A stretch of DNA of 64,000 nucleotides from a virus. Under the pieces are notes generated by a model. The model was given only the letters and a program-made list of their open reading frames with translations, was not told the origin of the DNA and made no database searches. Made by a program: the position numbers and the translations under genes. Each line of letters begins with the position of its first letter. Within the stretch, counting starts at the first letter, position 1. The DNA is taken from UHGV virus genome UHGV-1558314; one strand, written 5' to 3'. Positions 3,343 to 62,111 of the stretch are shown in pieces.

Positions 3343-3420
3343 AGATGTAGAGGTTTAGTATATTTGATAGTATATTATTTATAGATATATAATACTACAC
3401 ACTTGCAGATTTTGCACTTA
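3343..3420 (-). promoter_or_regulatory. Late-type AT-rich promoter (TATAAATA-like) with AACCTCTAC leader element
   Basis: Gene-sense reads ...CTATAAATAATATACTATCAAATATACTAAACCTCTACATCT-ATG. Confidence 0.35.
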
Positions 3421-3574
3421 GTTGATAAATAATTTGTAAACATTTTCACAAACTTTTAACAGCTCTTTCGCTTATGAAAACTACTCAACTCTGGTTTGAA
3501 CGCCAGCAGTCAATCGCGGGTGGGCTCTTCGTGCTCCTATCACTACTATTGATGTCAGACTGTATGACTATGAT

Positions 3575-4225
3575 ATGCCGACAAAGGCATACACGACTGG
3601 GACTCATAGCATCGTAGTATACTATGATGGCGGAATTGTTGCAAATGGCAACACACAAAATGGGCGTTGGTACTCATCTCGACTTCAGCTTCAGCAATCA
3701 AAGGGCGCAGTTATCACTATAGCATTGCAAGATGCAAGCATTAGCGGCGTTGGTTGTGCTACTGTGTCATTTTACGCAGATGATGCAAAGATACAAAATG
3801 GCACTATGCATGTCAAACTATATTGTCGTACACAATATGAGTTTGTATGGCCACAAGCATACATGACTCAGTATGTGAATGATTTAATGTATGCTGTTTA
3901 TGTAGAGCCAAGTGACGTAAGATTTAATACAAGAGCTTTTGTCAATTGTTGCGGTTGTGGTCAAGCATTGACTGACAACTTTAATGGAGAACTCTGGGAT
4001 AATGGCTATTCAATTGAAGACACTGACATTATGCAAGCTGACGCAGACGAATGGTGGCCAATGATTAGTAATGCCTATGCAGAATTTCCATACACTGTCA
4101 TAGCATCAAACATTCCGGAAGAGTCTATGGCATCTGGACTTGCAGCTTTTCTGCAAAGTGCTGGTGTTGGCAGTGTTTTCTATGTACAAGCATTGCAGCT
4201 TGGTGAACTTGTAAGTTCATTTTAG
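3575..4225 (+). CDS. Hypothetical protein (216 aa), plus-strand island
   Basis: ORF track; followed by bidirectional terminator; short upstream ORF from ATG 3474 with hydrophobic segment overlaps its start in another frame. Confidence 0.5.
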   Translation: MPTKAYTTGTHSIVVYYDGGIVANGNTQNGRWYSSRLQLQQSKGAVITIALQDASISGVGCATVSFYADDAKIQNGTMHVKLYCRTQYEFVWPQAYMTQYVNDLMYAVYVEPSDVRFNTRAFVNCCGCGQALTDNFNGELWDNGYSIEDTDIMQADADEWWPMISNAYAEFPYTVIASNIPEESMASGLAAFLQSAGVGSVFYVQALQLGELVSSF

Positions 4226-4240
4226 ACTGTAGCATGATAC

Positions 4241-4282
4241 AAAAAGAAAGCCGAACTGAATTTCAGTTCGGCTTTCTTTTTT
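4241..4282. terminator. Bidirectional rho-independent terminator
   Basis: A5 - gaaagccgaactg / cagttcggctttc stem (13 bp) - T6 between convergent genes ending 4225 (+) and 4301 (-). Confidence 0.75.
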
Positions 4283-16963: not shown

Positions 16964-17420
16964 TTAAAATTTGCCATCTGCTACTTGAAAACATTGATAG
17001 CCAAGCTCTCGCCATTTAGCGACCATGGAATCGCGGTCTTCAAGCACAAATGCAATTTGTTGCAGTTCGTCTTCAGACAATGTTTCTACAAGCAATTCAG
17101 GTTTGACAAGCGTATCATGACGTTTATCACCATCTTTTCGCATAAGAATTTGCGGATTGACGATTCTGCCATCTGTATGCTGTGCAAGCCAAACTTCTGT
17201 CATCTGTCTGCAGCTTTCACGACGACCTGTGCAGAATATGATTCTGTAGCCAACTTGCTGCAAATCGCAAAGCAAGTCAAGCACAGTCATAATAGGCTTG
17301 TCTTCATAACAGTGTGCATAAAATGCATCCCCAATCTTTGTTTGATTGTTGAAGATATTTTAGACGGTCGCCAACTTTTGAAATTGTTCCGTCAATGTCG
17401 CATATGATGATATTTGCCAT
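16964..17420 (-). CDS. HAD-superfamily phosphatase interrupted by an apparent frameshift (two ORF fragments)
   Basis: N-fragment from ATG 17418-17420: MANIIICDIDGTISKVGDRLKYLQQSNKDWG... (DxDGT motif I); C-fragment 16964-17290 has IIFCTGRRE, RKDGDKR, EDRD; frames differ, shift localises to C4 run at 17329-17332. Confidence 0.6.
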
Positions 17421-33611: not shown

Positions 33612-36600
33612 TTAGCCACGAATCAAGTCAACCAAGCGTTGCTGTTCAGGAGTCAATGACGACTTTCCACTGCCATCAACGTTTTCGTTAACGAAACCGA
33701 CTGGCTGCTTAGTCGAATATGACTTGATTGCAGCCCAGTTACGTGAACGATAGAATGCTGCGACATCTGACTCATTTACGAAAGTGCGAACTGCTGCCTG
33801 AGTAGCAATCAATGACTTCTGTTCAGGAGTCAAGCTTTCATAAATGTACTTGTATGCTGTTGGCATGTGCTTCAGATACAATGGCGTATGGTCAATTGGC
33901 TGCAGATTCTCATCCAAGACTGCCACACCTGCAGCATCATAGCGAGTTGCAAGCTGCTTTGTTTGACGACGCAATGCAGCAATTTCATGCTTGATGTTTG
34001 TCAAGCATTCATCTGTTGCTTGCGCGCCAAGATATGTGCGAAGCATATCAGACAGCATCTTCTGATTTGCGTCAGTCAAATCACCTGCGACTTCGATGCC
34101 AGTCAGCTGGTCATCCTTACTGATGACTACAGAAATTGTAGAGCCATCACGCTCAACTGTGCGGAAGTCAAAGTCATCATATGACTTATCCTTAAGAACA
34201 GCTTCACGAATATTGTCATCTACGCCTTCATTGACCATGCTCATGCATTCCTCAACATCTACGTCAAGTCCAAGCTCTTCTGCAGTTTCAGCAATCTTTT
34301 CTGCAAGTTGAGCTTTGTTTTCAACTTTGTCGAGGTCTGCTGCATCTGATACAGCATCGACAAGTTCATCTGCCTGTGCACGAGTAATCGTTGAAGCATC
34401 AACAAGGCCATCAATGATTTGCTCTACATCTGCAGGCGTCGGCTTATTGTCTTCTGTAGCTTCATTGATAAACTTAGCAGTCTTTGGCTTGTAGCTAAGC
34501 TTGCCCTCATTAACCATCTCATCCTGCAATTGTGCAGCGATGTATGCAATCAGCAATGACTTGTTGGCTTCAAGTTCATCGACTGCTTCAGCAGACTTTT
34601 GAGCTTTGATGAGTTCATCGTAAGCTGCTGCAACTTTGTCATCCATCGTAGACTTGTCAGGGTCAATGTTTTTGATGCATGTCTTGACAATGTCATCCTG
34701 ATAGAACTTGTCAATGATTGACTTGTCAGTGTCAGAGTACGTTGCATACAGCTTGTCAGCAACAATTGACTCATTGACAATCTTGCCAGGCTCAGATGCA
34801 GGAACAAGAGTCCACTTACCATCAACTTCTGCAACAATGCCTGATGTCGATTCACCATAAGTGACTGTCAGACGAGTACCAGCTTCATTGTTATCAATTG
34901 TGTTGACGACTGCTTCGAATTCATTGCCATCTGCATCATAGATTTTGATGTTGTCACCGACAGCAGCTTCATCTACTGGTGCTTCGAAGAACTCTTTGAC
35001 AAAGTTCTGAACATCAACGGGCAGACTGTCATATGGCTGTGATGCATAGTACTCTGAGTCAGCGTCAAGGTAGTTCTTTGACAGCAGCCAAGTTTTTCGA
35101 GCAGCAACATCTGCAGCATTCCAAGCATCGACTGACTCATCGCAGTCATCAACAAGTGCAAGATACTCAGGGTCTTTCTTGTCATCAAAACGAAGAGTAA
35201 ACTTTTGCTCGGGCTTGCCAGCAGGCCAAACTTCGACTTCAATTTTTGTAGTGCCTGCAACATTTTTGACTGCGCCTACAACAATCTTGTCGCCTTTGTT
35301 GATGCCATTAGACATGTCGTATGGTGCTTCAATAGATTCATCTGTCGACTGTGCTCGAATTGCAGCTGCAATAGCGTTACGAGATTCATTGTCAAACATC
35401 TCCCATGTAGCATTTGCAGCATCTTCTACGCCAATCTTGTCTTTGCCAATCTGCTCAATTAACTGATTGCGGTCAGCTACTGAAGCATTGTACCACCAGT
35501 CTGCTGCAGGGTCAGAAGCTTCATCAAGCGCTTTGACAGTTTCATATCGACCGTCATACAGCATGTACTTATCACCTTCTTTGATGGCTACAGACTCCTT
35601 GCCATTGTACTTGAATGACACTTTGTCTTCATTGAAGCCAGTCAATTCAGCTGTGATTTTGTCACCGTTCTTGTCATAAACTTCGACAGTTTGTGCTTCA
35701 TCAATGTTCAAGTGCTTCTTGAGTGCATCTACAAGTTCTTTGCCAAGTGCATCTTCATTGTCATGAGCATGTTGGAAGCAATCTTCATCTGACTTATCAG
35801 GCTGAACAGCTTTCAATGCTGTGGCACGATTGAGCATTGACATTGTGCCCCAGATTGATACGAAGCTTTTGCCCTCATTGTCTTGTGCTTTGGCTTCGTC
35901 AATTGCATCAATGTCTTTCTCAAGCATTGCATGATGAGCAATGTCGATGCCAGCCCATTTCGTCTTTGCATTATATGGCAAACCAATATGCTTCGACAAA
36001 ATTGACTGACGCTGGTCATCTGTGAATGAATCCCAAGCTTCGCCAAGTGTTGCATGCTTTGCTTCATCAGCAGCAAATTCAGCTTCAATCTTGAGTTTGT
36101 GGTCCTTGTCAATCAGTTGCCACTTGGCATTTGGACGATAAAACTCAGACAATGACAGCTTGTCAAGAATGACTTTGCGTTCGTCATCTGACAATTCGTC
36201 CCACTTGTTGTCAGCAGATTCATCGATGTTGACGAGTTCTTTCTCAATGAGATTCTTGTCAAGCATTGCATCAATGATTGGCTGCTGGGCTTCTGCTGGA
36301 ATGTCTTTGAACGACTTAATTGCAATGACAGCGTCTTTGTCATCAACTTTAGCAGCTTCAACAATTTCTGTCTTCACTTCATCAGTCAAAGCGCCCCAAG
36401 CAGCATCGAGATAATCAAAGTTGAGAGCTTCATCACATTCAACAATGCCATACTGCTTTGCAATGTCATTGTGCTTGTCAAGATTGCTGTCGAGTTCAGC
36501 TTCAATTGCTGCTTTGATGTCATCAATTGACTTATCTTCAACTTCAAACTCAAGAGCTTTTGCAAATTCAGTCAATGCTGCATCATCAAGCTTGCTAATG

Positions 36601-37562
36601 TCATAAGGCTTAGCATCTTCATTTGTGAAGTCAATGCCAAGCAAAGACATTGCTTGTTTTTTGTTTTCTTCTGAGAGTGCATCGAATGCAGTTGCAAGAC
36701 CGACATCGGTATAGTCACACCCAACTTCGTCAAGCAATGCTTCGACTTTCTGGATGTTTTCTACACCAACTTCATTAGCATCAGCATTGTTGTATGCCTC
36801 AATAAAACGTGATTGGTTTGTCATGGTAGTGAAATCTTCTATTGATTCGTTTATGAGTTGCTGTTTGAGTGCATCCAATGATGCTGAGCCAATCAATGCA
36901 TCAGGGAATAGCTTCTGCAACATGCCTGTACGTGCAAGCTCAATCAATTGGAGCATCAATGAGTTTGGCGAGTCTTCGTCATCTACAGATTCACAAATGA
37001 GAGTGTCTTTTGATTCATTAACTGAACCGACAAGATTGAACTCTGCTTCAGGAAATGACGGCTCGCATACTAAATCGTATGTAATCAACTTTAGTAGAGT
37101 CGTTGCACCTGTAGTAGGATTAACTATACCAAGAGCTCGACTTGATACAAACAATGGTGAGCCTGCAGCCACAACTGCCCATGCAATACGACCTGCTGGC
37201 GTATCAAGAATAGTAATCCAGCCTTCAAATCGTTGCTTATCAGGATTCCATTCAATACTGTCAATGCGGTGTGATACATTCCCATACTTCACAGTACGTC
37301 GCTTAACATGCTCAAGCTCGCCAAATAGACGCTTAGCTTTGATTGCTGATTGCAATGTTTGTACTTGCGCAAAATAATTTTCGAAATTGTATGTTCGACC
37401 ATTACGATTACGCTCGCCAATAGTTGCATATGTACCGAACAATCTACCAAGCGCGCCACTTGGCACATGTTCATCTACAGCTTCAGCAACAAATTGACAA
37501 TCCTGGCGGCTTTCTATAATAAGCTGCGCAGGCTTGCCTTTGTATGTTATTGGTTTTGCCAT
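33612..37562 (-). CDS. Prohead protease (T4 gp21 / S77-like) fused to a long acidic scaffold/internal-protein-like region (1316 aa)
   Basis: N-terminal NGRTYNFENY ... LFGELEHVKRR ... SHRIDSIEW ... ILDTPAGRIAWAVVAAGSPLFVSSRALG ... YDLVCEPSFP; downstream GSVNE, LINESIED, MSMVNEG, KFINEA, KIVNES, TFVNES, GFVNEN. Confidence 0.8.
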   Translation of the reverse strand: MAKPITYKGKPAQLIIESRQDCQFVAEAVDEHVPSGALGRLFGTYATIGERNRNGRTYNFENYFAQVQTLQSAIKAKRLFGELEHVKRRTVKYGNVSHRIDSIEWNPDKQRFEGWITILDTPAGRIAWAVVAAGSPLFVSSRALGIVNPTTGATTLLKLITYDLVCEPSFPEAEFNLVGSVNESKDTLICESVDDEDSPNSLMLQLIELARTGMLQKLFPDALIGSASLDALKQQLINESIEDFTTMTNQSRFIEAYNNADANEVGVENIQKVEALLDEVGCDYTDVGLATAFDALSEENKKQAMSLLGIDFTNEDAKPYDISKLDDAALTEFAKALEFEVEDKSIDDIKAAIEAELDSNLDKHNDIAKQYGIVECDEALNFDYLDAAWGALTDEVKTEIVEAAKVDDKDAVIAIKSFKDIPAEAQQPIIDAMLDKNLIEKELVNIDESADNKWDELSDDERKVILDKLSLSEFYRPNAKWQLIDKDHKLKIEAEFAADEAKHATLGEAWDSFTDDQRQSILSKHIGLPYNAKTKWAGIDIAHHAMLEKDIDAIDEAKAQDNEGKSFVSIWGTMSMLNRATALKAVQPDKSDEDCFQHAHDNEDALGKELVDALKKHLNIDEAQTVEVYDKNGDKITAELTGFNEDKVSFKYNGKESVAIKEGDKYMLYDGRYETVKALDEASDPAADWWYNASVADRNQLIEQIGKDKIGVEDAANATWEMFDNESRNAIAAAIRAQSTDESIEAPYDMSNGINKGDKIVVGAVKNVAGTTKIEVEVWPAGKPEQKFTLRFDDKKDPEYLALVDDCDESVDAWNAADVAARKTWLLSKNYLDADSEYYASQPYDSLPVDVQNFVKEFFEAPVDEAAVGDNIKIYDADGNEFEAVVNTIDNNEAGTRLTVTYGESTSGIVAEVDGKWTLVPASEPGKIVNESIVADKLYATYSDTDKSIIDKFYQDDIVKTCIKNIDPDKSTMDDKVAAAYDELIKAQKSAEAVDELEANKSLLIAYIAAQLQDEMVNEGKLSYKPKTAKFINEATEDNKPTPADVEQIIDGLVDASTITRAQADELVDAVSDAADLDKVENKAQLAEKIAETAEELGLDVDVEECMSMVNEGVDDNIREAVLKDKSYDDFDFRTVERDGSTISVVISKDDQLTGIEVAGDLTDANQKMLSDMLRTYLGAQATDECLTNIKHEIAALRRQTKQLATRYDAAGVAVLDENLQPIDHTPLYLKHMPTAYKYIYESLTPEQKSLIATQAAVRTFVNESDVAAFYRSRNWAAIKSYSTKQPVGFVNENVDGSGKSSLTPEQQRLVDLIRG

Positions 37563-37707
37563 ATTGTTAAATGTGTTATTTGAAAGTTTGCAACATTTTT
37601 GTTGTTATTGATTATATATGCAAGGCAGACTTGTGTGTTGAAAAATTGCAAATTTTCAGTAATTTGTACATACATAAAATACAAAACCATCCAAATCAAT
37701 TCATTGT
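37563..37707. promoter_or_regulatory. Divergent promoter region between minus protease gene and plus RuvC-like gene
   Basis: AT-rich, contains atatatgcaagg (late-like, minus) and taatttgtacatacataaaat (plus). Confidence 0.35.
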
Positions 37708-38376
37708 ATGTCAACAAACAATCATGGCAAGCTCAGATTACTTGAGCTCAAAGAAGCACAGCCATATGATACACTCAAAATTGGCATCGACGTATCAGTA
37801 GATGCTACTGGCATGTGCATGATATTTGGCAAGACTGTCGCATTGTTCAAATTTACACCACATTTGCCGCCAGAAGATGACAGTTCAGATGATGTGAACT
37901 TTGTGCAGTTCAACAAAATCTATCTGCAAACATCATCTTCTGCAAGAGAACGCTCAAAAATGCATACTCGACATACGCTTGCAAATAAGATTGTTGATGC
38001 TATTGACATGTTCATGCAGGAAATCTGGCCGAACAGTCCAGCAAACATTCAAATTGTCACAGAAGGGTCTGCATATGGCTATGCTGCGCATAACTCTAAC
38101 AGCTTAGTTGAACTTGCTGAATTTAGAAGCGTGATTTTAGAAAGAGTCTATCATCGTTGGCCTCTTGGTACACATCTAAGTCTTGATGTCATTGCGCCAA
38201 AATCATTGAAGAAACACGCGACTGGTGATGGCAAAGCAGACAAACTAAAGATGATTGAAGCTGCAATCGCTAAGTTGACACGCATTCATTGGGCAGGCAA
38301 AATTGACGATGAATGTGACGCATTGCATCTTTGTATGTATGAGCCATTAAGCAATCCTGAACCACGACTTTGGTGA
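37708..38376 (+). CDS. RuvC-like Holliday junction resolvase
   Basis: LKIGIDVSVDATGM (first Asp), VTEGSAYGY (Glu), DDECDALHLCMYE (Asp/His). Confidence 0.8.
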   Translation: MSTNNHGKLRLLELKEAQPYDTLKIGIDVSVDATGMCMIFGKTVALFKFTPHLPPEDDSSDDVNFVQFNKIYLQTSSSARERSKMHTRHTLANKIVDAIDMFMQEIWPNSPANIQIVTEGSAYGYAAHNSNSLVELAEFRSVILERVYHRWPLGTHLSLDVIAPKSLKKHATGDGKADKLKMIEAAIAKLTRIHWAGKIDDECDALHLCMYEPLSNPEPRLW

Positions 38377-38497
38377 CATTACATCATACAACATAAGTTT
38401 CATTTCAAAAACTCAATTCATATGCAAATCCCTCGTAACTGGGGGAGGGGCACAACAAGCCCTCCAAAGCAAGTCAAAGATTCTTGCAAAAGTTGAC

Positions 38498-38773
38498 GTG
38501 TATTTAATGCCAAGCGCAAACATTGACACGCTTATCAAACAAGGCTTTAAGTACATTGTGTATCGCAACACTAATACAATGTCAGCGTATCAATACACGA
38601 ATAGAATGTTTGCTGATTCGTCAACAATGGCAATGCTAACATTGACAGACGTTGAAATTGGCGACATGCATTCGTTTGGCTTGCATAACACAACAAATAA
38701 TACAACAAAGCCTATGCAAATGCGTCAAGTAACAATTACACCAACCTCCACTGTTGTAACTGTGCAATGGTGA
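38498..38773 (+). CDS. Hypothetical small protein (91 aa)
   Basis: ORF track; followed by hairpin terminator. Confidence 0.4.
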   Translation: MYLMPSANIDTLIKQGFKYIVYRNTNTMSAYQYTNRMFADSSTMAMLTLTDVEIGDMHSFGLHNTTNNTTKPMQMRQVTITPTSTVVTVQW

Positions 38774-38794
38774 GCGCTCATTAGCATATGCATC

Positions 38795-38829
38795 AAAAAA
38801 ACTCCGACAGAATTGTTCTGTCGGAGTTT
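38795..38829 (+). terminator. Hairpin terminator ending the plus-strand island
   Basis: aaactccgacag aattgtt ctgtcggagttt. Confidence 0.6.
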
Positions 38830-39111
38830 GCTGTTGTTATAAACAGTTATCTTAACAACACTGTTATCTCAAAATGTTTTGCAATCTACTGCATGATTCA
38901 ATTTTGTGTGGCACTGTCATCAGATGTTGCAAAGTCAACTTCACCAGTAGACTTTACTGCAGACTTAAATGCATTCAAGCCGCATGTAACAATGCAGATA
39001 ACTACAATTTTTAATGCCAAACAGCTTATAAACTGTTACGACACCATTGTCAATCTTGCGGTTATACGTAATTATTTTCTTAAAAAGTGCATGCTTCGTT
39101 TTCATATGTCA

Positions 39112-40908
39112 TTAGCTTTGTGATGTTTTGGCAGGTTCATCATCAATAGGCTCATCATCAACTGACTCATCATCACCTGTATCAATGCCAGAAGCCGCAG
39201 CAAGTGAAACATCATTAGCGACGCCTTGCTGTTCAAGTTGTTGTTGAGCTTGTTTTGTTTGAATTGCGACAAGTCTTGCAGCTTCCATTGCAAGCTTAAG
39301 ATTCTCTTGAAGTTCGATATCAAGCTGTTCAGCATTAGCTTGCATGTCTTCTTTGCTTAAGCCAAGGTACTTGTTGATAAGCCAATTGCTCGAGAAGAAC
39401 GGGCGTTCAGTGTCAGACATGTTAAGTGAACGAACAAGTGAACTGCGAATATCTTCGATTGTATGTATACGCTTCTGAAGCAATGTGAGCTCCATTTGCG
39501 TTTGGAAGTGATTGTATCGATTGAACTTAAGTTTTAGTGCATTCAACACATCATTGTCACCAATGTAGTTATTGTTTTTGATGCACATCAAAACATACAC
39601 AGGCTTCAATATGATTGCAACGCCAAATCTACGCATCAAAGCTGAAATGAAGATAGCAAAGCGCCGCTCATCACGTTGAATTGACTCTTCAGAAACATTC
39701 CACATGCCACCGCCGTCATCGAATCTGCTTAGAGGCAGCTTTGACAAGCGTTGCAAGTTATTGCGGAAATATGTGACTGCTGAAGTGTCAGATAAGTCAG
39801 GCATGCCTGTGCCAATTGTTTGAATGTTGGGTTTGCCTGCATTAGTATCAGCCAGCCAAAATTCGCTATTGAAGGGCACAGATGCTTCACCGTTAACTTG
39901 GAGTTCGCCGGTTTGATTGTCGAATTCAATTTTTTCGTGGTACTTATTCATTGCTTTACGCAATGTTTCCTGTGCAGCAGCTTTCAGTTTACCGCCAGTA
40001 GGAATTGTGATAAGTGAACGAAAACGAGCAGCTGTCGTAGCATATGCAATGCGGCTTCGCTCCAAAATTCTAAGTAAGTTAAACGCACGAACAAGACGCT
40101 CAAAGTATGACATAGACCCAACCATGTCATCATTCCACTGCAAATATGCTACTTGCGAATCAAGCAAGTTGATTTTTTCTGAATTATTAGACACAAATGC
40201 TGGTGCTTTAACATCAAACATTGTATGTGTCTTAAACATATCTTGTTGAGACTTATCATACTGCCAGAAGAACATGTCGCCCTTCTTCATAGGTGTCAAT
40301 GCAAACGCGTTCAACTTTCTGATGCCAACAACATCAGTTGGCTCATCTGCATTATCAAACACAATCTCATAGCCAAGTCTACCTCGTACAAGATATTCAC
40401 GCAACAATGCTTTGACATCTTGTTTACGAGGTTCTGAGTTCAACCCATTGAATGCATACATCAAATAGACTTGCTTGAATGCATCCATAAAGTCATCTTT
40501 GATTGTCTGCTTTGTTGCGTCATCTATCTCAAGTTTATCGATGTCGCAAAAATCAGGCTCGCAAAAGAAATTGCTATCAGAATTGAACACGATGCACTCA
40601 TCAATCATGCGGTCAAGAATGTCATCGAGTTCCGGTTCTGCACTTAAGATGTCATATTTTTTGGCTCGAAGATAACTTGTCAATCCAAAAAGATTCTTTT
40701 TAGGTGACTCTTTCTGATTGAACACGTCATCAGTAGACAACACAACAACTTCTTGGTCATTGATGTTATGCTCACCTGTATATGCTGCTTTCTCCAAATC
40801 TGCATCAGACCCAGACTTGTGCACGTTCAATTGCTGCAATGGGCTGTCTTTTGGAATTGAGCGCAATGCATCAGTCCCCAGATATGTTCGTTTGGTCTTT
40901 TTAGCCAT
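39112..40908 (-). CDS. Hypothetical protein (598 aa) with acidic C-terminus; possible portal protein
   Basis: Size and acidic C-terminal tail DDESVDDEPIDDEP; no Walker A, so not terminase; function tentative. Confidence 0.65.
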   Translation of the reverse strand: MAKKTKRTYLGTDALRSIPKDSPLQQLNVHKSGSDADLEKAAYTGEHNINDQEVVVLSTDDVFNQKESPKKNLFGLTSYLRAKKYDILSAEPELDDILDRMIDECIVFNSDSNFFCEPDFCDIDKLEIDDATKQTIKDDFMDAFKQVYLMYAFNGLNSEPRKQDVKALLREYLVRGRLGYEIVFDNADEPTDVVGIRKLNAFALTPMKKGDMFFWQYDKSQQDMFKTHTMFDVKAPAFVSNNSEKINLLDSQVAYLQWNDDMVGSMSYFERLVRAFNLLRILERSRIAYATTAARFRSLITIPTGGKLKAAAQETLRKAMNKYHEKIEFDNQTGELQVNGEASVPFNSEFWLADTNAGKPNIQTIGTGMPDLSDTSAVTYFRNNLQRLSKLPLSRFDDGGGMWNVSEESIQRDERRFAIFISALMRRFGVAIILKPVYVLMCIKNNNYIGDNDVLNALKLKFNRYNHFQTQMELTLLQKRIHTIEDIRSSLVRSLNMSDTERPFFSSNWLINKYLGLSKEDMQANAEQLDIELQENLKLAMEAARLVAIQTKQAQQQLEQQGVANDVSLAAASGIDTGDDESVDDEPIDDEPAKTSQS

Positions 40909-41053: not shown

Positions 41054-42172
41054 TCATAGTAATGATGCTTGTAAAATGTCTATAATGTGCTCATCAGTTT
41101 CACATAAATCTGTATCACTTATTATGCAATATGCAGACAATTCAGTAGATGCATTAACATATGCAGTCATTGCAGCAGCTTTTGCTATGACTATATCATC
41201 ATGCAGCCATTTAGCAGGCTTTATTTCAACAACAATTTGCGCGTTATTAAAATGCACAACAAAATCCGCGATATATACATGTGTAGCACTATTGAACACA
41301 TACTTACACCTTGCAGTTTCTATTGAATAGTGTAACTTATTGCGTTCACAAAAGTGTATAAATTTGCGTTCATTGTTTGAACGAAACGACGCTTTAGCTG
41401 ATAAACAGTATTTTGCAGTTTGAACATAGCCTCTCATGCAGTTCATAAATGGCTGCAATGACATTATGTCTCGACCATTTAACAATGCTCTATGCTGTGC
41501 TTCTGCACGTCTACGTTTAACTTCTGGTTTAGCATCTGTAATTTTGCGAGTAGCACGTATACGTTCTTTAACACCAGGTCGAGCCATGATTGCTTTTGCA
41601 GAAGCACTTCGATGCGCATGTGTTTCAGGCCTTGCGTTAGCAATTAGCATCCCATGCAATTGAGTGTCTTTAACTTCTTGACGCTGCATTGCTATTCGAG
41701 TGCTCTGTGAAATCTTTTGCCTAACTGCAGGATTTGACATTGCACGTTTTGCGCGTTCTGACGCCTTTACACGTAGTTCTGTATTATTTGCATACATGGC
41801 ACGTTGAGTATTACTAATTTTGGTGCCAATGCGTTGTTTATATTCTGCATCTGCAAAGTATTTTGCATTTCTGCATGCATGACTGCAAACATCGCCGTCA
41901 CCATAGCCACGTGTTACACACCACCATGTTAATTGCTTGCCACATATAGAACATGTTGGGATATCTGAGTCATCTTTAATTTCACATAGATATTTGTCAT
42001 ACCATTGCTTCAATGAATAGCCTACAATAGGTTCAGCCTTTCTACTAAAATACGTGCTAAATATCCATGTATCAAGTTCAGGCACGTATAACTGAAACTT
42101 TGTACGTGTTATTTGCTTAACAAATTTGTCCCAATTCTTAGCGGCATTGCGCTTAGCGTCTTCAGCAGTCAT
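41054..42172 (-). CDS. Zinc-finger / tandem-repeat DNA-binding protein with C-terminal PD-(D/E)xK nuclease domain (homing-endonuclease-like)
   Basis: CSICGK...CSHAC; four to five about 17-aa repeats (KISNTQRAM, KASERAKRAM, KISQSTRIAM, SASAKAIMA); YIADFVV...QIVVEIKP. Confidence 0.7.
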   Translation of the reverse strand: MTAEDAKRNAAKNWDKFVKQITRTKFQLYVPELDTWIFSTYFSRKAEPIVGYSLKQWYDKYLCEIKDDSDIPTCSICGKQLTWWCVTRGYGDGDVCSHACRNAKYFADAEYKQRIGTKISNTQRAMYANNTELRVKASERAKRAMSNPAVRQKISQSTRIAMQRQEVKDTQLHGMLIANARPETHAHRSASAKAIMARPGVKERIRATRKITDAKPEVKRRRAEAQHRALLNGRDIMSLQPFMNCMRGYVQTAKYCLSAKASFRSNNERKFIHFCERNKLHYSIETARCKYVFNSATHVYIADFVVHFNNAQIVVEIKPAKWLHDDIVIAKAAAMTAYVNASTELSAYCIISDTDLCETDEHIIDILQASLL

Positions 42173-42179
42173 TAGAGCA

Positions 42180-42926
42180 TCAAATCATTCTGTTATCACT
42201 AACTGCAAAGTTGATATTGTTGTCTTTCAGATATTGCATGTACATTGCAAATACTTGTTCTGCTGTCATTTTGTTGTACTTTGATGATGGTATGAAAATT
42301 GCTTTCGACCAGTTCTCATAAGTTATTTCAATCAAACCTGTAATGCGTTCTGGAATGTATTCACGAAATGCAAACGCGCCGCCATATGGCTGTACAATTG
42401 GCGCGATTTTGTGCCAATCAACAAACACAGGTGTTTGTTCTGTTCTATAAAGCTCGCCTTTATATTTTGATGCAAATGCTCTAAAAATTGCTTCTGCAAT
42501 CACAAAGCGAACTTCAAGTGGCACAAAGTGTAAGCTTAAGCCAACAGAACGCCATTCACCAGATTGTGTGTAAAAGCCGCCCATACAAAAACATAGGGGC
42601 GTTTCGTCCCACACTGCAAGCCAATCTTTTGTTTTAGGGTCACTGTATACAAACATATACAGCTTCCCAGGCTCCATGTACTTTCTGCGAATCTGCACAT
42701 CAGGATTCGTAGCATATGATTTGAACCATGCAGCAGCTTCTCTACCACCGTTTGGCATTTTGTACCACGGATTGCTTCGAATTTCTTTGCCAAGGTCATA
42801 TTGACCAGACTTTACCAAACGATTGAATAATCGTTGTGCTGCAGTCAATATTGAACGTCCTACTGACTTCGCTTTGTCAATAAAAGACGTTTTTGCTTGT
42901 GTATCTAATGAATTAAACTTTGCCAT
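42180..42926 (-). CDS. Hypothetical protein (248 aa)
   Basis: ORF track; no motif. Confidence 0.65.
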   Translation of the reverse strand: MAKFNSLDTQAKTSFIDKAKSVGRSILTAAQRLFNRLVKSGQYDLGKEIRSNPWYKMPNGGREAAAWFKSYATNPDVQIRRKYMEPGKLYMFVYSDPKTKDWLAVWDETPLCFCMGGFYTQSGEWRSVGLSLHFVPLEVRFVIAEAIFRAFASKYKGELYRTEQTPVFVDWHKIAPIVQPYGGAFAFREYIPERITGLIEITYENWSKAIFIPSSKYNKMTAEQVFAMYMQYLKDNNINFAVSDNRMI

Positions 42927-43073: not shown

Positions 43074-43523
43074 TCATTTGAAGAATCGTTCAGTTATGAT
43101 TTTGAACTTAACATTTTGTTGTTTGCAATATGCAATTGCGGCATTCCACTTTGCGACATTTTTGCAATATGTTTCTTTCGCATAATTTGACGCAGACCGA
43201 CTTGGGCATTGCGTTTCATGCCATGGTTTCACCTCAACGACATATGTAGAATCTGCGGTTTTGAACAAAAAGTCGGGCCAATATGTGTGCGTTACGCCAT
43301 CAAGCTCATATGCAATTGGCAGTGTCTCAGATGACCAAGCAAGAACCTTTGAACTCATATCGCAAAGCTTGCAAAATCTGAATTCAAGTGAACTGCGGTA
43401 TATGATTGTCTTGTCTGTCGCGTCTTTGCCTTTGTACTTATCTGGGTTCATGCATCTGTAGTAGCCTTGCTTGTAGGGCCCTGATTTGTTTGGCTTAAGT
43501 TGCTTAATGTTCATTGCAGTCAC
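43074..43523 (-). CDS. PD-(D/E)xK-family nuclease (149 aa)
   Basis: YWPDFLF ... YVVEVKP (PD ... ExK) core. Confidence 0.7.
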   Translation of the reverse strand: MTAMNIKQLKPNKSGPYKQGYYRCMNPDKYKGKDATDKTIIYRSSLEFRFCKLCDMSSKVLAWSSETLPIAYELDGVTHTYWPDFLFKTADSTYVVEVKPWHETQCPSRSASNYAKETYCKNVAKWNAAIAYCKQQNVKFKIITERFFK

Positions 43524-61618: not shown

Positions 61619-61741
61619 TATTGTAGAGGTTTTAGTGTTCTGTATATTATGTTCGAATATATGGGGGCATATATTATATATAGATATATTACAACACACA
61701 AATCATTTTTGCACACTTTTATAAACCAAAATTTCACAAAA

Positions 61742-62050
61742 ATGCAAACACAAGAAGTTTTAACGGATGTCATTGACATGTCACAATCAGCTCGCAATTA
61801 TGCGCTTGGCACTGTATGTGACGCAGAAGAGCATGAAGATGCTGTTGACGCAGTTATCGAAGATTACATGCAAGGCGCAAGAGAAATGTACGTCAAGTTG
61901 ACTACATTTGTCAATGTCAATGATGCAGTGCCTACAAATAACTACCCAGTCATTGCAAAGCTTGCAAATGATTCATATGCAATTGCAACATTTGAAAATG
62001 ACATGTGGTCAGTTGACCATATTGTTGCGTGGCGCAAGTTGCACATTTAA
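61742..62050 (+). CDS. Hypothetical acidic protein (102 aa), plus-strand island
   Basis: ATG at 61742 (MQTQEVLTDVIDMSQ); followed by bidirectional terminator. Confidence 0.45.
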   Translation: MQTQEVLTDVIDMSQSARNYALGTVCDAEEHEDAVDAVIEDYMQGAREMYVKLTTFVNVNDAVPTNNYPVIAKLANDSYAIATFENDMWSVDHIVAWRKLHI

Positions 62051-62064
62051 GATTACAGCACAAC

Positions 62065-62095
62065 AAAAAAGTCCGAGCAATGCTCGGACTTTTTT
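62065..62095. terminator. Bidirectional rho-independent terminator
   Basis: aaaaaagtccgagc aat gctcggactttttt. Confidence 0.75.
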
Positions 62096-62111
62096 GTTGT
62101 GCACTGATTGT

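What the first reader, a model, noticed from the sequence alone, without database searches (positions are those of the whole stretch)
37563..38829. Plus-strand islands bounded by terminators; one carries a RuvC-like resolvase
Only three regions are plus-coded (3474..4282, 37708..38829, 61742..62095), each ending at a bidirectional hairpin. A RuvC-type resolvase placed between the protease/scaffold gene and the portal-like gene, instead of with replication genes, is atypical and may reflect insertion as a moron cassette.
Basis: seen in the sequence. Interest (0 to 1): 0.4.

Follow-up and report, generated by a model that had tools for sequence, protein, structure and literature searches.

The report
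Relocated, inverted phage RuvC resolvase gene
The plus-strand gene between the head protease and portal genes is this phage group's own RuvC-type DNA-junction resolvase, moved out of the replication module and flipped, which is ordinary phage genome shuffling in a nuclease-rich hotspot rather than a foreign add-on.

Summary
ORF 37708..38376 (+) lies between a protease/scaffold fusion (33612..37562, -) and a T4-type portal gene (39112..40908, -). Each of the three plus-strand islands ends at a strong hairpin.

The protein is a RuvC-family resolvase:
- PHROG 159 match, E 1.9e-13.
- The AF2 model's best PDB matches are bacterial RuvC.
- D28/E119/D201/D204 are invariant.
- dN/dS is 0.01-0.02.

The gene order is not conserved. 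Five related lineages (portal 55-59% identical) have an empty portal|protease junction. Their RuvC orthologues sit beside gp32 and a helicase, once on the same 153.7-kb contig as an empty junction.

A closer clade (L012/L013) has RuvC at the portal junction but co-oriented, 23 nt after the portal stop. The window clade has it inverted. In the closest 174.6-kb relative the old gp32-side slot holds a Hef-like homing-endonuclease gene.

RuvC divergence tracks the backbone and its composition is native. It is therefore a relocated core gene, not a foreign moron.

The 38498..38773 ORF is a strain-variable ORFan.

The locus is a hotspot for homing-endonuclease-like genes. Interest is low to moderate.

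The parts
33612..37562 (-). Prohead protease / scaffold fusion gene (1316 aa); left flank of the island.
   Evidence: Pfam Peptidase_S77 and phrog_207 (E 7.1e-34). Colinear with L012 and L003.
37563..37707 (.). Divergent intergenic region. 37563-37656 is the conserved protease upstream region. It holds the TATATAAT-N17-TTGCAAAC motif on the minus strand (37618-37588) and a GAAAAATTGCAAAT element. About 45 nt upstream of the RuvC ATG are conserved within the window clade. The RuvC promoter was not identified.
   Evidence: blastn homology to the L012 protease upstream region ends at 37656. Motif scan. Inverted repeat 37581-37598 / 37641-37658. Alignment.
37708..38376 (+). RuvC-family Holliday-junction resolvase gene (222 aa). 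It is inverted relative to its flanks and relative to the orthologue in L012/L013.
   Evidence: Family matches. Invariant acidic residues. AF2 model pLDDT 83.5. Foldseek matches. D201/D204 alignment. dN/dS. Inversion.
38377..38497 (+). Spacer holding ATG 38422 and a G-rich tract (about 38441-38450). The tract sits in a GC hairpin, GGAGGGGC..GCCCTCC.
   Evidence: GGGGGAGGGG in the window, GGGGGTGGGG in L001, and 12 G in L022/L025. In L022/L025 the ATG is in frame and gives a 117-aa ORF.
38498..38773 (+). Small ORFan (91 aa from GTG 38498, or 88 aa from ATG 38507). It is strain-variable and of unknown function.
   Evidence: No Pfam or PHROG match. HMMER against 1.84 billion representatives finds only its own cluster, P0067. 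The segment 38417-38790 is absent from L021/L023. L001 has a divergent allele sharing only the FGLHN..TTTP motif. dN/dS is 0.4 on 10 changes.
38799..38829 (.). 14-bp perfect hairpin between the convergent RuvC unit and the portal operon. It is the terminator for the portal side and probably also stops RuvC transcription.
   Evidence: The loop is flipped (TTG vs CAA) between strains.
38898..39105 (-). Remnant of a 62-63-aa minus-strand ORF that follows the portal gene in L021/L023. In the window it is split into 46-aa and 40-aa pieces.
   Evidence: T-run length differences.
39112..40908 (-). T4 gp20-type portal gene; right flank of the island.
   Evidence: Pfam Portal_T4 E 1.9e-59 and phrog_213.
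41054..42172 (-). 372-aa Zn-finger plus TnsA/endonuclease-I-like nuclease gene at the gp2|portal junction. It is a candidate free-standing homing endonuclease and is variable between strains.
   Evidence: The site is empty in L003, L013, L029 and L039. In L021/L023 it holds a Hef-like 392-aa gene.
3474..4281 (+). Plus-strand island 1: ORFs 3474..3617 and 3575..4225, followed by the bidirectional hairpin 4241-4281.
   Evidence: N-terminal module shared with L012_244.
61742..62102 (+). Plus-strand island 3: ORF 61742..62050 (102 aa, no family), followed by the bidirectional hairpin 62058-62102.

Best explanation
**What it is.** The island is a self-contained, opposite-strand transcription unit. 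It carries the phage group's own RuvC-family structure-specific endonuclease.

**Likely function (inferred).** The protein most likely works as a dimeric, Mg-dependent resolvase. It would cut Holliday junctions and other branches in the replicated, recombining concatemer so that the T4-type portal/terminase machine can package DNA without stalling. T4 endonuclease VII (gp49), which binds the portal gp20, does this job in T4.

**Evolutionary history.**
- Shown: in relatives the gene sits in the replication/recombination module, between a roughly 250-290-aa gene and gp32/helicase.
- Inferred from parsimony: the gene was relocated to the portal|protease junction in the common ancestor of the window clade and the L012 clade.
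- Shown as a state: the CDS is inverted between these two clades. In L012/L013 it follows the portal stop by 23 nt, co-directionally, with its own terminator. In the window clade it points against both neighbours.
- Inferred: in the window clade it needs its own promoter, which has not been identified.
- Inferred: the 14-bp hairpin at 38799-38829 then separates the convergent RuvC and portal transcripts.
- Shown: in the closest large relative the vacated gp32-side slot holds a Hef-like homing-endonuclease gene.
- Shown: the portal region is a hotspot where such nuclease genes and small ORFans come and go.
For: **Identity as a RuvC-family resolvase**
- PHROG 159 at E 1.9e-13, and Pfam RuvC at its cutoff.
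- AF2 model with pLDDT 83.5 and pTM 0.84.
- Best PDB matches are RuvC of P. aeruginosa, E. coli, T. thermophilus and D. radiodurans (E 3e-6 to 2.5e-5, prob 1.0), then Ydc2.
- Best viral matches are annotated phage RuvC / Holliday junction resolvases, E down to 1.3e-11.
- D28, E119, D201 and D204 are invariant in 12 homologues.
- hhalign places D201 and D204 on E. coli D138 and D141.

**Functional gene**
- dN/dS is 0.011-0.024 against near relatives (37-41 synonymous vs 2-4 non-synonymous changes) and 0.12 against L012.

**Relocation**
- The portal|protease junction is empty in L003/L017/L018/L020, L026/L027, L029, L037/L038 and L039.
- tblastn finds no RuvC remnant in those loci.
- Orthologues 51-62% identical lie between a 250-287-aa gene and gp32/helicase/thioredoxin in L004-L011, L014, L015, L032 and L035.
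- One contig, scaffold_76 (153,672 bp), shows both an empty junction (L029) and RuvC beside gp32 (L032).
- Sample ERZ14235894 gives the same pairing on two contigs of similar coverage (L004 and L037).
- A midpoint-rooted NJ tree nests window+L012 inside the gp32-slot lineages.
- The cultured distant relatives MA9V-2 and PTm1 have gp4-gp2-portal-[small unrelated ORF]-protease.

**Inversion**
- L012/L013 are colinear with the window on the opposite strand, except for the RuvC CDS, which matches in direct orientation.

**Vacated slot**
- L028 comes from the 174.6-kb UViG whose RuvC is 99% identical to the window's. It reads: 274-aa homologue, then a 388-aa Hef-like gene, then gp32, then helicase, with no RuvC.

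**Native origin**
- GC is 0.39-0.40, as elsewhere in the window.
- RuvC and portal diverge in step.

**Functional rationale**
- T4 gp49 resolvase is portal-bound and releases packaging stalled on branched DNA (PMC9958956).
Against: - No biochemical or expression data exist.
- The Pfam hit sits exactly at threshold and covers only the C-terminal half.
- A profile search of PDB sequences found no RuvC, and hhalign probability to E. coli RuvC is only 16%. Family assignment therefore leans on the predicted fold and the PHROG profile.
- D28 and E119 are assigned by motif and position, not by a scored alignment.
- No RuvC promoter was found. Sigma-70-like hits are at chance level.
- The hairpin lacks a good U-tract on the RuvC side.
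- The polarity of the relocation rests on midpoint rooting without bootstrap, and on outgroups that are very distant.
- The replication module was seen in a close relative (89-95% nt identity, L028), not in the window's own genome. A second RuvC copy elsewhere in that genome is not excluded.
- Which orientation at the portal junction came first cannot be decided.
Confidence: 0.75

Rival explanations
1. Moron reading. The RuvC unit is a foreign, accessory promoter-gene-terminator cassette acquired horizontally and inserted between portal and protease.
For: - The unit is absent from this junction in five related lineages.
- It lies on the opposite strand and ends at a hairpin.
- tblastn against GenBank phage records finds no match.
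Against: - Every relative examined carries an orthologue elsewhere in its genome.
- RuvC divergence equals backbone divergence: 80% vs 77% for L012, and 53% vs 55% for scaffold_76.
- Composition is native.
- Strong purifying selection.
- The gp32-side slot lacks RuvC in the closest relative. This is therefore the genome's only visible resolvase of this type.
Confidence: 0.08
2. Selfish or hitch-hiking gene reading. The RuvC gene is itself mobile (a RuvC-fold free-standing homing nuclease), or it is carried around by the neighbouring Hef-like or TnsA-like homing endonucleases. Either would explain two genomic sites and two orientations.
For: - It occupies intergenic sites between conserved genes, at two locations and in both orientations.
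- It is directly adjacent to candidate homing endonuclease genes in L009-L011 (TnsA-like 360 aa) and in L022/L024/L025 (Hef-like 401 aa).
- A Hef-like gene fills its old slot.
- Nuclease genes are reported to mark recombination boundaries in phages (PMC10448857).
Against: - There is no presence/absence polymorphism within clades. All seven window-clade contigs and both L012-clade contigs carry it in a fixed orientation.
- By contrast, the Hef-like and TnsA-like genes are polymorphic among contigs about 94% identical.
- One copy per genome where testable.
- No extra DNA-binding domain.
- Sequence homology between the clades stops at the CDS ends.
Confidence: 0.1
3. Reversed polarity reading. 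The portal-adjacent position is ancestral for the group, and the gp32-adjacent position is derived in the other lineages.
For: - The tree is only midpoint-rooted.
- A portal-linked resolvase makes functional sense (PMC9958956).
Against: - Six sampled RuvC lineages on both sides of the midpoint root share the gp32 slot, with the same upstream and downstream neighbours.
- Cultured outgroups have no RuvC next to the portal.
- This reading needs a root on the window+L012 branch or several parallel moves.
Confidence: 0.07
4. Programmed invertible switch reading. The segment flips by site-specific recombination to turn RuvC or neighbouring genes on and off.
For: - The two orientations exist in related phages.
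- The terminator hairpin loop is found in both orientations.
Against: - No flanking inverted repeats beyond chance-level 70%-complementary matches.
- No invertase gene is seen in the neighbouring ORFs.
- Orientation is fixed within each clade.
- The flanks differ between the two arrangements.
Confidence: 0.02

Closest known systems
Phage RuvC-like resolvases (PHROG 159; e.g. Lactococcus phage bIL67 RuvC, PMC3864405). The closest predicted structures are RuvC of Phage sp. ctL4h4 and the Holliday junction resolvase of Tenacibaculum phage pT24.
   Same: - RNase-H-like RuvC fold.
- D-E-D-D acidic tetrad.
- Small single-domain protein encoded by a lytic phage.
- Expected to cut Holliday junctions and other branched DNA.
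   Different: - Only about 23% identity to the nearest modelled viral protein, and no tblastn hit in 50,697 GenBank phage records.
- About 60 residues longer than bacterial RuvC, with an N-terminal extension, an acidic insertion at about residues 51-76, and an invariant C-terminal EPRLW tail.
- The gene lies in the head-morphogenesis module on the opposite strand.
T4 endonuclease VII (gp49) and T7 endonuclease I (gp3)
   Same: Proposed role: debranching replicated DNA for packaging. T4 gp49 binds the gp20 portal and releases stalled Y/X DNA (PMC9958956). Here the resolvase gene sits next to a gp20-type portal gene.
   Different: The folds are unrelated (His-Me finger for gp49, PD-(D/E)xK for gp3). 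This is a functional analogy only. Any portal interaction is untested here.
Morons of lambdoid and other phages
   Same: An opposite-strand or autonomous unit lying between two genes that are adjacent in relatives, and ending at a terminator.
   Different: The gene is a native core function that was relocated. It is not a foreign accessory gene, and it shows no compositional contrast.
Free-standing homing endonuclease genes of T4-like phages (Hef, Seg, Mob; PMC2988022, PMC10448857)
   Same: The same locus shows their typical behaviour. Hef-like (phrog_3339) and TnsA-like nuclease genes are present, absent or swapped at intergenic sites among contigs about 94% identical.
   Different: The RuvC gene itself does not show this polymorphism, and it belongs to no known homing endonuclease family.

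Membership tests
RuvC-family Holliday junction resolvase (Pfam PF02075 / PHROG 159) | Significant match to the family sequence profiles. | tested here: met
   PHROG 159 at E 1.9e-13 over residues 25-210. Pfam RuvC at 22.2 bits, equal to the gathering cutoff, over residues 125-208 only. A profile search of PDB sequences gave no RuvC hit.
RuvC-family Holliday junction resolvase (Pfam PF02075 / PHROG 159) | RNase-H-like fold with RuvC topology. | tested here: met
   AF2 model with pLDDT 83.5 and pTM 0.84. The top seven PDB matches are all bacterial RuvC (E 2.7e-6 to 2.5e-5, TM relative to target 0.56-0.70), followed by Ydc2. Forty-five viral matches have E <= 1e-3, and the top-ranked ones that carry a name are annotated RuvC / Holliday junction resolvases. 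This is a predicted structure, not a solved one.
RuvC-family Holliday junction resolvase (Pfam PF02075 / PHROG 159) | Catalytic acidic tetrad (E. coli D7, E66, D138, D141). | tested here: met
   D28 (GIDVS), E119 (TEG), D201 and D204 (DDECDA) are invariant in 12 homologues. D28 and E119 are assigned by motif and strand position.
RuvC-family Holliday junction resolvase (Pfam PF02075 / PHROG 159) | Homodimer that makes symmetric nicks in four-way junctions. | not testable with these tools
   Needs purified protein and synthetic junctions.
Moron (autonomous accessory cassette) | Inserted between two genes that are adjacent in related phages. | tested here: met
   Portal is directly followed by protease in five lineages.
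Moron (autonomous accessory cassette) | Own promoter and own terminator. | tested here: inconclusive
   The hairpin 38799-38829 is present, but its U-tract is on the other strand. No promoter was identified; sigma-70-like hits are at chance level.
Moron (autonomous accessory cassette) | Foreign origin: a gene not otherwise part of the phage group's core, often with deviant composition. | tested here: not met
   Orthologues occur in all sampled relatives at another site. Divergence tracks the portal. GC is 0.39-0.40, like the rest of the window.
Free-standing homing endonuclease gene | Sporadic presence or absence at a fixed intergenic site among close relatives. | tested here: not met
   RuvC is present, in a fixed orientation, in all 7 window-clade and both L012-clade contigs. 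The neighbouring Hef-like and TnsA-like genes do show this behaviour.
Free-standing homing endonuclease gene | Nuclease of a known homing family, plus a DNA-recognition extension. | tested here: not met
   Single RuvC-fold domain. No NUMOD, HTH or Zn-finger module in the model or in the profile searches.
Invertase-driven invertible DNA segment | Flanking inverted repeats, a nearby recombinase gene, and both orientations within one population. | tested here: not met
   No significant flanking inverted repeats. No recombinase gene among the neighbours. Orientation is fixed per clade.

The most novel reading that the evidence does not exclude
The RuvC gene may have been moved next to the portal gene because the protein docks on the gp20-type portal, perhaps through its invariant C-terminal EPRLW tail. 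That would make it a RuvC-fold analogue of portal-bound T4 endonuclease VII. The move itself may have been driven by homing-endonuclease-induced breaks: a Hef-like gene now fills the old slot, and Hef-like or TnsA-like genes flank the new one. This would be a concrete case of selfish nucleases transplanting a core gene between genome modules.
Probability: 0.12. Interest if true: 0.6.

Novelty: new member of a known kind. Interest (0 to 1): 0.3.

Why it matters
- It shows that an 'out-of-place', opposite-strand gene in a phage structural module need not be foreign. Here a core recombination enzyme was transplanted from the replication module to the portal gene and then inverted.
- This is a caution against calling morons from strand and position alone.
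- It gives a clean natural series for studying module rearrangement: empty site, co-oriented gene, inverted gene, and an old slot filled by a homing-endonuclease gene.
- The placement beside a gp20-type portal fits the T4 precedent of a portal-bound resolvase. It suggests a testable resolvase-portal coupling in an uncultured group of large phages, some of whose contigs come from human-gut metagenomes.

Tried and rejected
**Searches that gave nothing**
- Megablast of 36500-40500, and tblastn of RuvC, against 50,697 GenBank phage records: no match.
- tRNA scan and Rfam at gathering thresholds over the whole window: nothing. No known RNA family was detected at gathering threshold in the 735-bp spacer.
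- A degenerate-pattern scan for gp32 relatives in IMG/VR found none. The helicase alignment succeeded instead.
- A profile search of PDB sequences gave only chance Elp4 hits.
- The terminator scanner missed the island 1 and island 3 hairpins. Direct folding showed them.

**Ideas tested and dropped**
- Flanking inverted repeats that could drive inversion: only 70-84% complementary short pairs, judged to be chance.
- Sequence similarity between the window and L012 just outside the RuvC CDS that might mark inversion breakpoints: homology stops at the CDS (read by eye).
- A HMMER scan of 1.84 billion representatives with the 91-aa ORF gave only its own cluster plus low-complexity N/T-rich hits.
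- PTm1 ORF-299 and MA9V-2 gp208, which sit between portal and protease in cultured relatives, are unrelated to RuvC.
Full report
**1. What is in the sequence**

The window is almost wholly minus-coded. Non-overlapping minus-strand ORFs cover 87% of it.

- ORF 37708..38376 (+, 222 aa) lies between a 1316-aa protease/scaffold fusion and a T4 gp20-type portal gene.
  - The fusion is at 33612..37562 (-), with Peptidase_S77 and phrog_207 at 7e-34.
  - The portal gene is at 39112..40908 (-), with Portal_T4 at 1.9e-59.
- Further along the minus strand lie three more genes:
  - a 372-aa Zn-finger/TnsA-like nuclease gene (41054..42172);
  - a gp2-like DNA end protector (42180..42926);
  - a gp4-like head-completion nuclease (43074..43523).
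Each ends at a hairpin far more stable than shuffled sequence:
  - 38799-38829, z -6.9;
  - 4241-4281, z -8.6 and -11.5;
  - 62058-62102, z -11.3 and -8.8.
- The hairpins of islands 1 and 3 have A-runs and T-runs on both sides.
- The RuvC-island hairpin has a U7 tail only for the portal (minus) transcript. On the RuvC side it reads UUUGCUGUUGUU.
- GC of the island (0.39-0.40) equals that of the window. AT skew changes sign there, as expected for a coding-strand switch.

**2. What the protein is**

- Pfam RuvC matches at exactly its gathering score, over the C-terminal half only. PHROG 159 ('RuvC-like Holliday junction resolvase') matches at 1.9e-13 over residues 25-210.
- Twelve homologues (45-81% identity) keep D28, E119, D200/D201, D204 and a C-terminal RLW invariant.
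- An AF2 model built on that alignment is confident (pLDDT 83.5, pTM 0.84).
- Its seven best PDB matches are all bacterial RuvC (6lw3, 1hjr, 6s16, 4ep4, 4ep5, 7xhj, 7w8d; E 3e-6 to 2.5e-5). Mitochondrial Ydc2 comes next. IS621, Cas12f and IscB RuvC domains appear only at E > 1e-3.
- In the viral structure library the best matches are annotated phage RuvC or Holliday junction resolvases: Phage sp. ctL4h4 at 1.3e-11 and Tenacibaculum phage pT24 at 1e-10.
- hhalign puts D201 and D204 on E. coli D138 and D141.
- The gene is under strong purifying selection. It shows 37-41 synonymous against 2-4 non-synonymous differences to near relatives, giving dN/dS 0.01-0.02, and 0.12 to the 80%-identical L012 orthologue.
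- I therefore file it as a RuvC-family resolvase. Dimerisation and junction cleavage are untested.

**3. Relatives and the gene order**

There is no DNA match, and no RuvC protein match, in GenBank phage records. The portal is about 32% identical to those of Chryseobacterium phage MA9V-2, Sphingomonas phage PAU and Tenacibaculum phage PTm1.

The nearest large record is IMG/VR UViG 3300045988_152288 (174.6 kb). Its RuvC is 99% identical and its portal 97%. Some related contigs come from human-gut metagenomes.

The portal|protease junction exists in three states.

- **State (a), empty.** Portal stop is followed by 70-266 bp of non-coding DNA and then the protease gene.
  - This is seen in five lineages with portals 55-59% identical: L003/L017/L018/L020, L026/L027, L029, L037/L038 and L039.
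  - No RuvC remnant is found in them.
- **State (b), co-oriented.** RuvC follows the portal stop by 23 nt, is followed by its own hairpin plus T6, and then by the protease promoter region.
  - This is seen in L012/L013, where RuvC is 80% and portal 77% identical.
- **State (c), inverted.** RuvC points against both neighbours in the window and in six other contigs of its clade.

blastn makes the inversion explicit. L012 and L013 are colinear with the window on the opposite strand, except for the RuvC CDS, which matches in direct orientation. The conserved protease upstream region ends at window 37656.

**4. Where RuvC lives in the lineages with an empty junction**

- All more distant orthologues (51-62% identity) lie co-directionally between a 250-287-aa gene and gp32, a ResIII/DEAD helicase and a thioredoxin. 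These are L004-L011, L014, L015, L032-L036.
- The link is direct for one genome. Contig scaffold_76 (153,672 bp) has the empty junction at 144.7-146.7 kb (L029) and RuvC beside gp32 at 91.5 kb (L032).
- Sample ERZ14235894 gives the same pairing on two contigs of similar coverage (L004 and L037).
- The same replication module exists in the window's closest relative (L028, from the 174.6-kb UViG). The 274-aa homologue (57% identical), gp32 (65%) and the helicase (53%) are all present.
- In L028 the RuvC slot holds a 388-aa gene instead, and tblastn finds no RuvC.
- A midpoint-rooted NJ tree of the 12 RuvC proteins nests (window + L012) among gp32-slot lineages.
- The cultured distant relatives MA9V-2 and PTm1 have gp4-gp2-portal-[small unrelated ORF]-protease-MCP.
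- Parsimony therefore makes the gp32-side slot ancestral and the portal-side position derived. Which of the two portal-side orientations came first cannot be decided.
- RuvC divergence parallels backbone divergence (80% vs 77%, and 53% vs 55%). The gene is therefore a vertically inherited core gene that changed address, not an import.

**5. The locus is a nuclease-gene hotspot**

- The 388-aa gene in the old slot belongs to a family of ERYG-repeat proteins that also contains:
  - a 401-aa gene inserted between protease and RuvC in L022/L024/L025, which is absent from the window at 37646/37681 and split into 283 + 116 aa in L021;
  - a 392-aa gene at the gp2|portal junction of L021/L023;
  - a 508-aa Mom-domain fusion in L029.
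- The family matches phrog_3339 'homing endonuclease' (4e-48 for L029, 2.7e-9 for L028). It also matches the PTm1 'putative Hef-like homing endonuclease' at 30% identity.
- The window's own 372-aa gene at the gp2|portal junction belongs to a second family, Zn-finger plus TnsA/endonuclease-I-like.
  - In L009-L011 this second family sits right after RuvC.
  - The junction it occupies in the window is empty in L003, L013, L029 and L039.
- These genes are present, absent or swapped among contigs about 94% identical. That is the behaviour of free-standing homing endonuclease genes in T4-like phages (PMC2988022) and of nuclease genes at recombination boundaries (PMC10448857).
- RuvC shows no such polymorphism.

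**6. The rest of the island**

- **Small ORF.** There the RuvC stop is followed almost at once by the hairpin.
  - In L022/L025 the ORF is 117 aa from the ATG that corresponds to window 38422, because a 12-G run keeps the frame.
  - The window and L001 have GGGGG(A/T)GGGG, which puts that ATG out of frame. That leaves a GTG (38498) or ATG (38507) start.
  - L001 carries a strongly divergent allele sharing only the FGLHN..TTTP motif.
  - The ORF has no Pfam or PHROG family. In 1.84 billion representatives it matches only its own cluster. dN/dS is 0.4 on ten changes.
  - It is a strain-variable ORFan and may or may not be expressed.
- **ORF after the portal.** A 62-63-aa minus-strand ORF follows the portal in L021/L023. 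In the window it is broken in two (38898..39105).
- **Hairpin loop.** The loop of the hairpin is TTG in the window, L001 and L023, and CAA in L021 and L022. This is a flip of the palindrome.

**7. How it most likely works**

Shown:
- an intact, selected RuvC-fold nuclease gene;
- its position beside the portal gene;
- convergent arrangement with a strong hairpin.

Inferred:
- The enzyme removes Holliday junctions and other branches from replicated DNA so that headful packaging is not blocked. Phage RuvC enzymes are promiscuous on branched DNA (PMC3864405).
- In T4 the non-homologous resolvase gp49 is portal-bound and releases packaging motors stalled on Y/X DNA (PMC9958956).
- In the L012 clade the gene would be read as part of the late portal transcript.
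- In the window clade inversion uncoupled it, so it must have its own promoter. About 45 nt upstream are conserved in the clade, but no promoter could be recognised.
- The hairpin keeps the two converging transcripts apart.

**8. Verdict**

The position is atypical, derived and not conserved. The 'moron' label does not fit: the gene is a relocated and inverted core gene in a hotspot of homing-endonuclease-like genes.
- This is a new, divergent member of a known enzyme family, shown in an instructive but ordinary example of phage mosaicism.
- The more interesting reading, portal-coupled resolvase and nuclease-driven transplantation of a core gene, is not excluded and remains unsupported.

Noticed in passing
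window 41054..42172 (-); L021 12240-13418; L023 3031-4209: The gp2|portal junction holds different nuclease genes in near-identical phages. The window has a 372-aa Zn-finger/TnsA-like gene. L021/L023 have a 392-aa Hef-like gene. L003, L013, L029 and L039 have nothing there. This looks like competing free-standing homing endonucleases at one site.
   Followed up: partly
window 37646/37681; L022 7216-8421; L021 8190-9333: A 401-aa Hef-like gene sits between protease and RuvC in L022/L024/L025. In L021 it is split into 283 + 116 aa, so it is probably decaying. It is absent from the window. Another member of the same family (388 aa) fills the RuvC slot beside gp32 in L028.
   Followed up: partly
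window 38813-38815 (loop of hairpin 38799-38829): The hairpin loop is TTG in the window, L001 and L023 but CAA in L021 and L022, while the stems are identical. This is a flip-flop inversion of the palindrome between strains.
   Followed up: no
window about 38441-38450: The G-tract is polymorphic: GGGGGAGGGG in the window, GGGGGTGGGG in L001, and 12 G in L022/L025. The length decides whether ATG 38422 is in frame with the small ORF (117 aa vs 91 aa). This could be slippage, phase variation or an assembly artefact.
   Followed up: partly
window 3444..3520 and L012 8598-8663: Island 1 starts MKTTQLWFERQQ. These 16 residues, plus about 30 nt upstream, match the start of an otherwise unrelated 244-aa opposite-strand gene located between protease and sheath in L012. 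From memory, the motif resembles the T4 internal-protein capsid-targeting sequence MKTYQEFIAE. The island 3 ORF starts MQTQEVLTD. These islands may encode hypervariable capsid-targeted proteins.
   Followed up: partly
window 3474..3617 / 3575..4225; 38898..39105; 16964..17290: Several small genes read as frameshifted or truncated compared with relatives. Island 1 is in two frames. The 62-aa ORF after the portal is split at T-runs. A PNKP phosphatase-domain ORF covers only profile positions 35-143. These may be homopolymer errors in the assembly or real decay.
   Followed up: no
window 3386-3417 (+), 61685-61714 (+), 37618-37588 (-); also 11633, 18403, 23232, 48243 (+): A recurrent motif, TATAT(A/T)..-N12-22-T(T/G)GCA(C/A), lies upstream of plus-strand islands 1 and 3 and of the protease gene. 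It also occurs in several intergenic gaps. It may be a phage promoter; the strand assignment is unclear.
   Followed up: partly
L029 11786-12050; L003 7874-8072; window 37581-37598 / 37641-37658: The protease upstream region carries repeated GAAAAATTG(A)CAA(T)TT-type elements across the group. They appear as three tandem copies in L029, as direct repeats in L003, and as an 18-nt inverted pair in the window. This is probably a regulator or promoter element for the protease operon.
   Followed up: no
window 38353..38373 (RuvC residues 216-222): R220, L221 and W222 at the C-terminus of RuvC are invariant in all 12 homologues, and the preceding E-P (residues 218-219) are conserved in nearly all, despite 45-81% overall identity. 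This tail (EPRLW in the window) is a candidate docking motif for a partner protein.
   Followed up: no
window 33612..37562 and orthologues in L012, L021, L022, L026, L029, L039: The protease/scaffold fusion varies from 1316 to 1658 aa among relatives. blastn homology is patchy and there are internal indels, so the acidic scaffold part is hypervariable.
   Followed up: no
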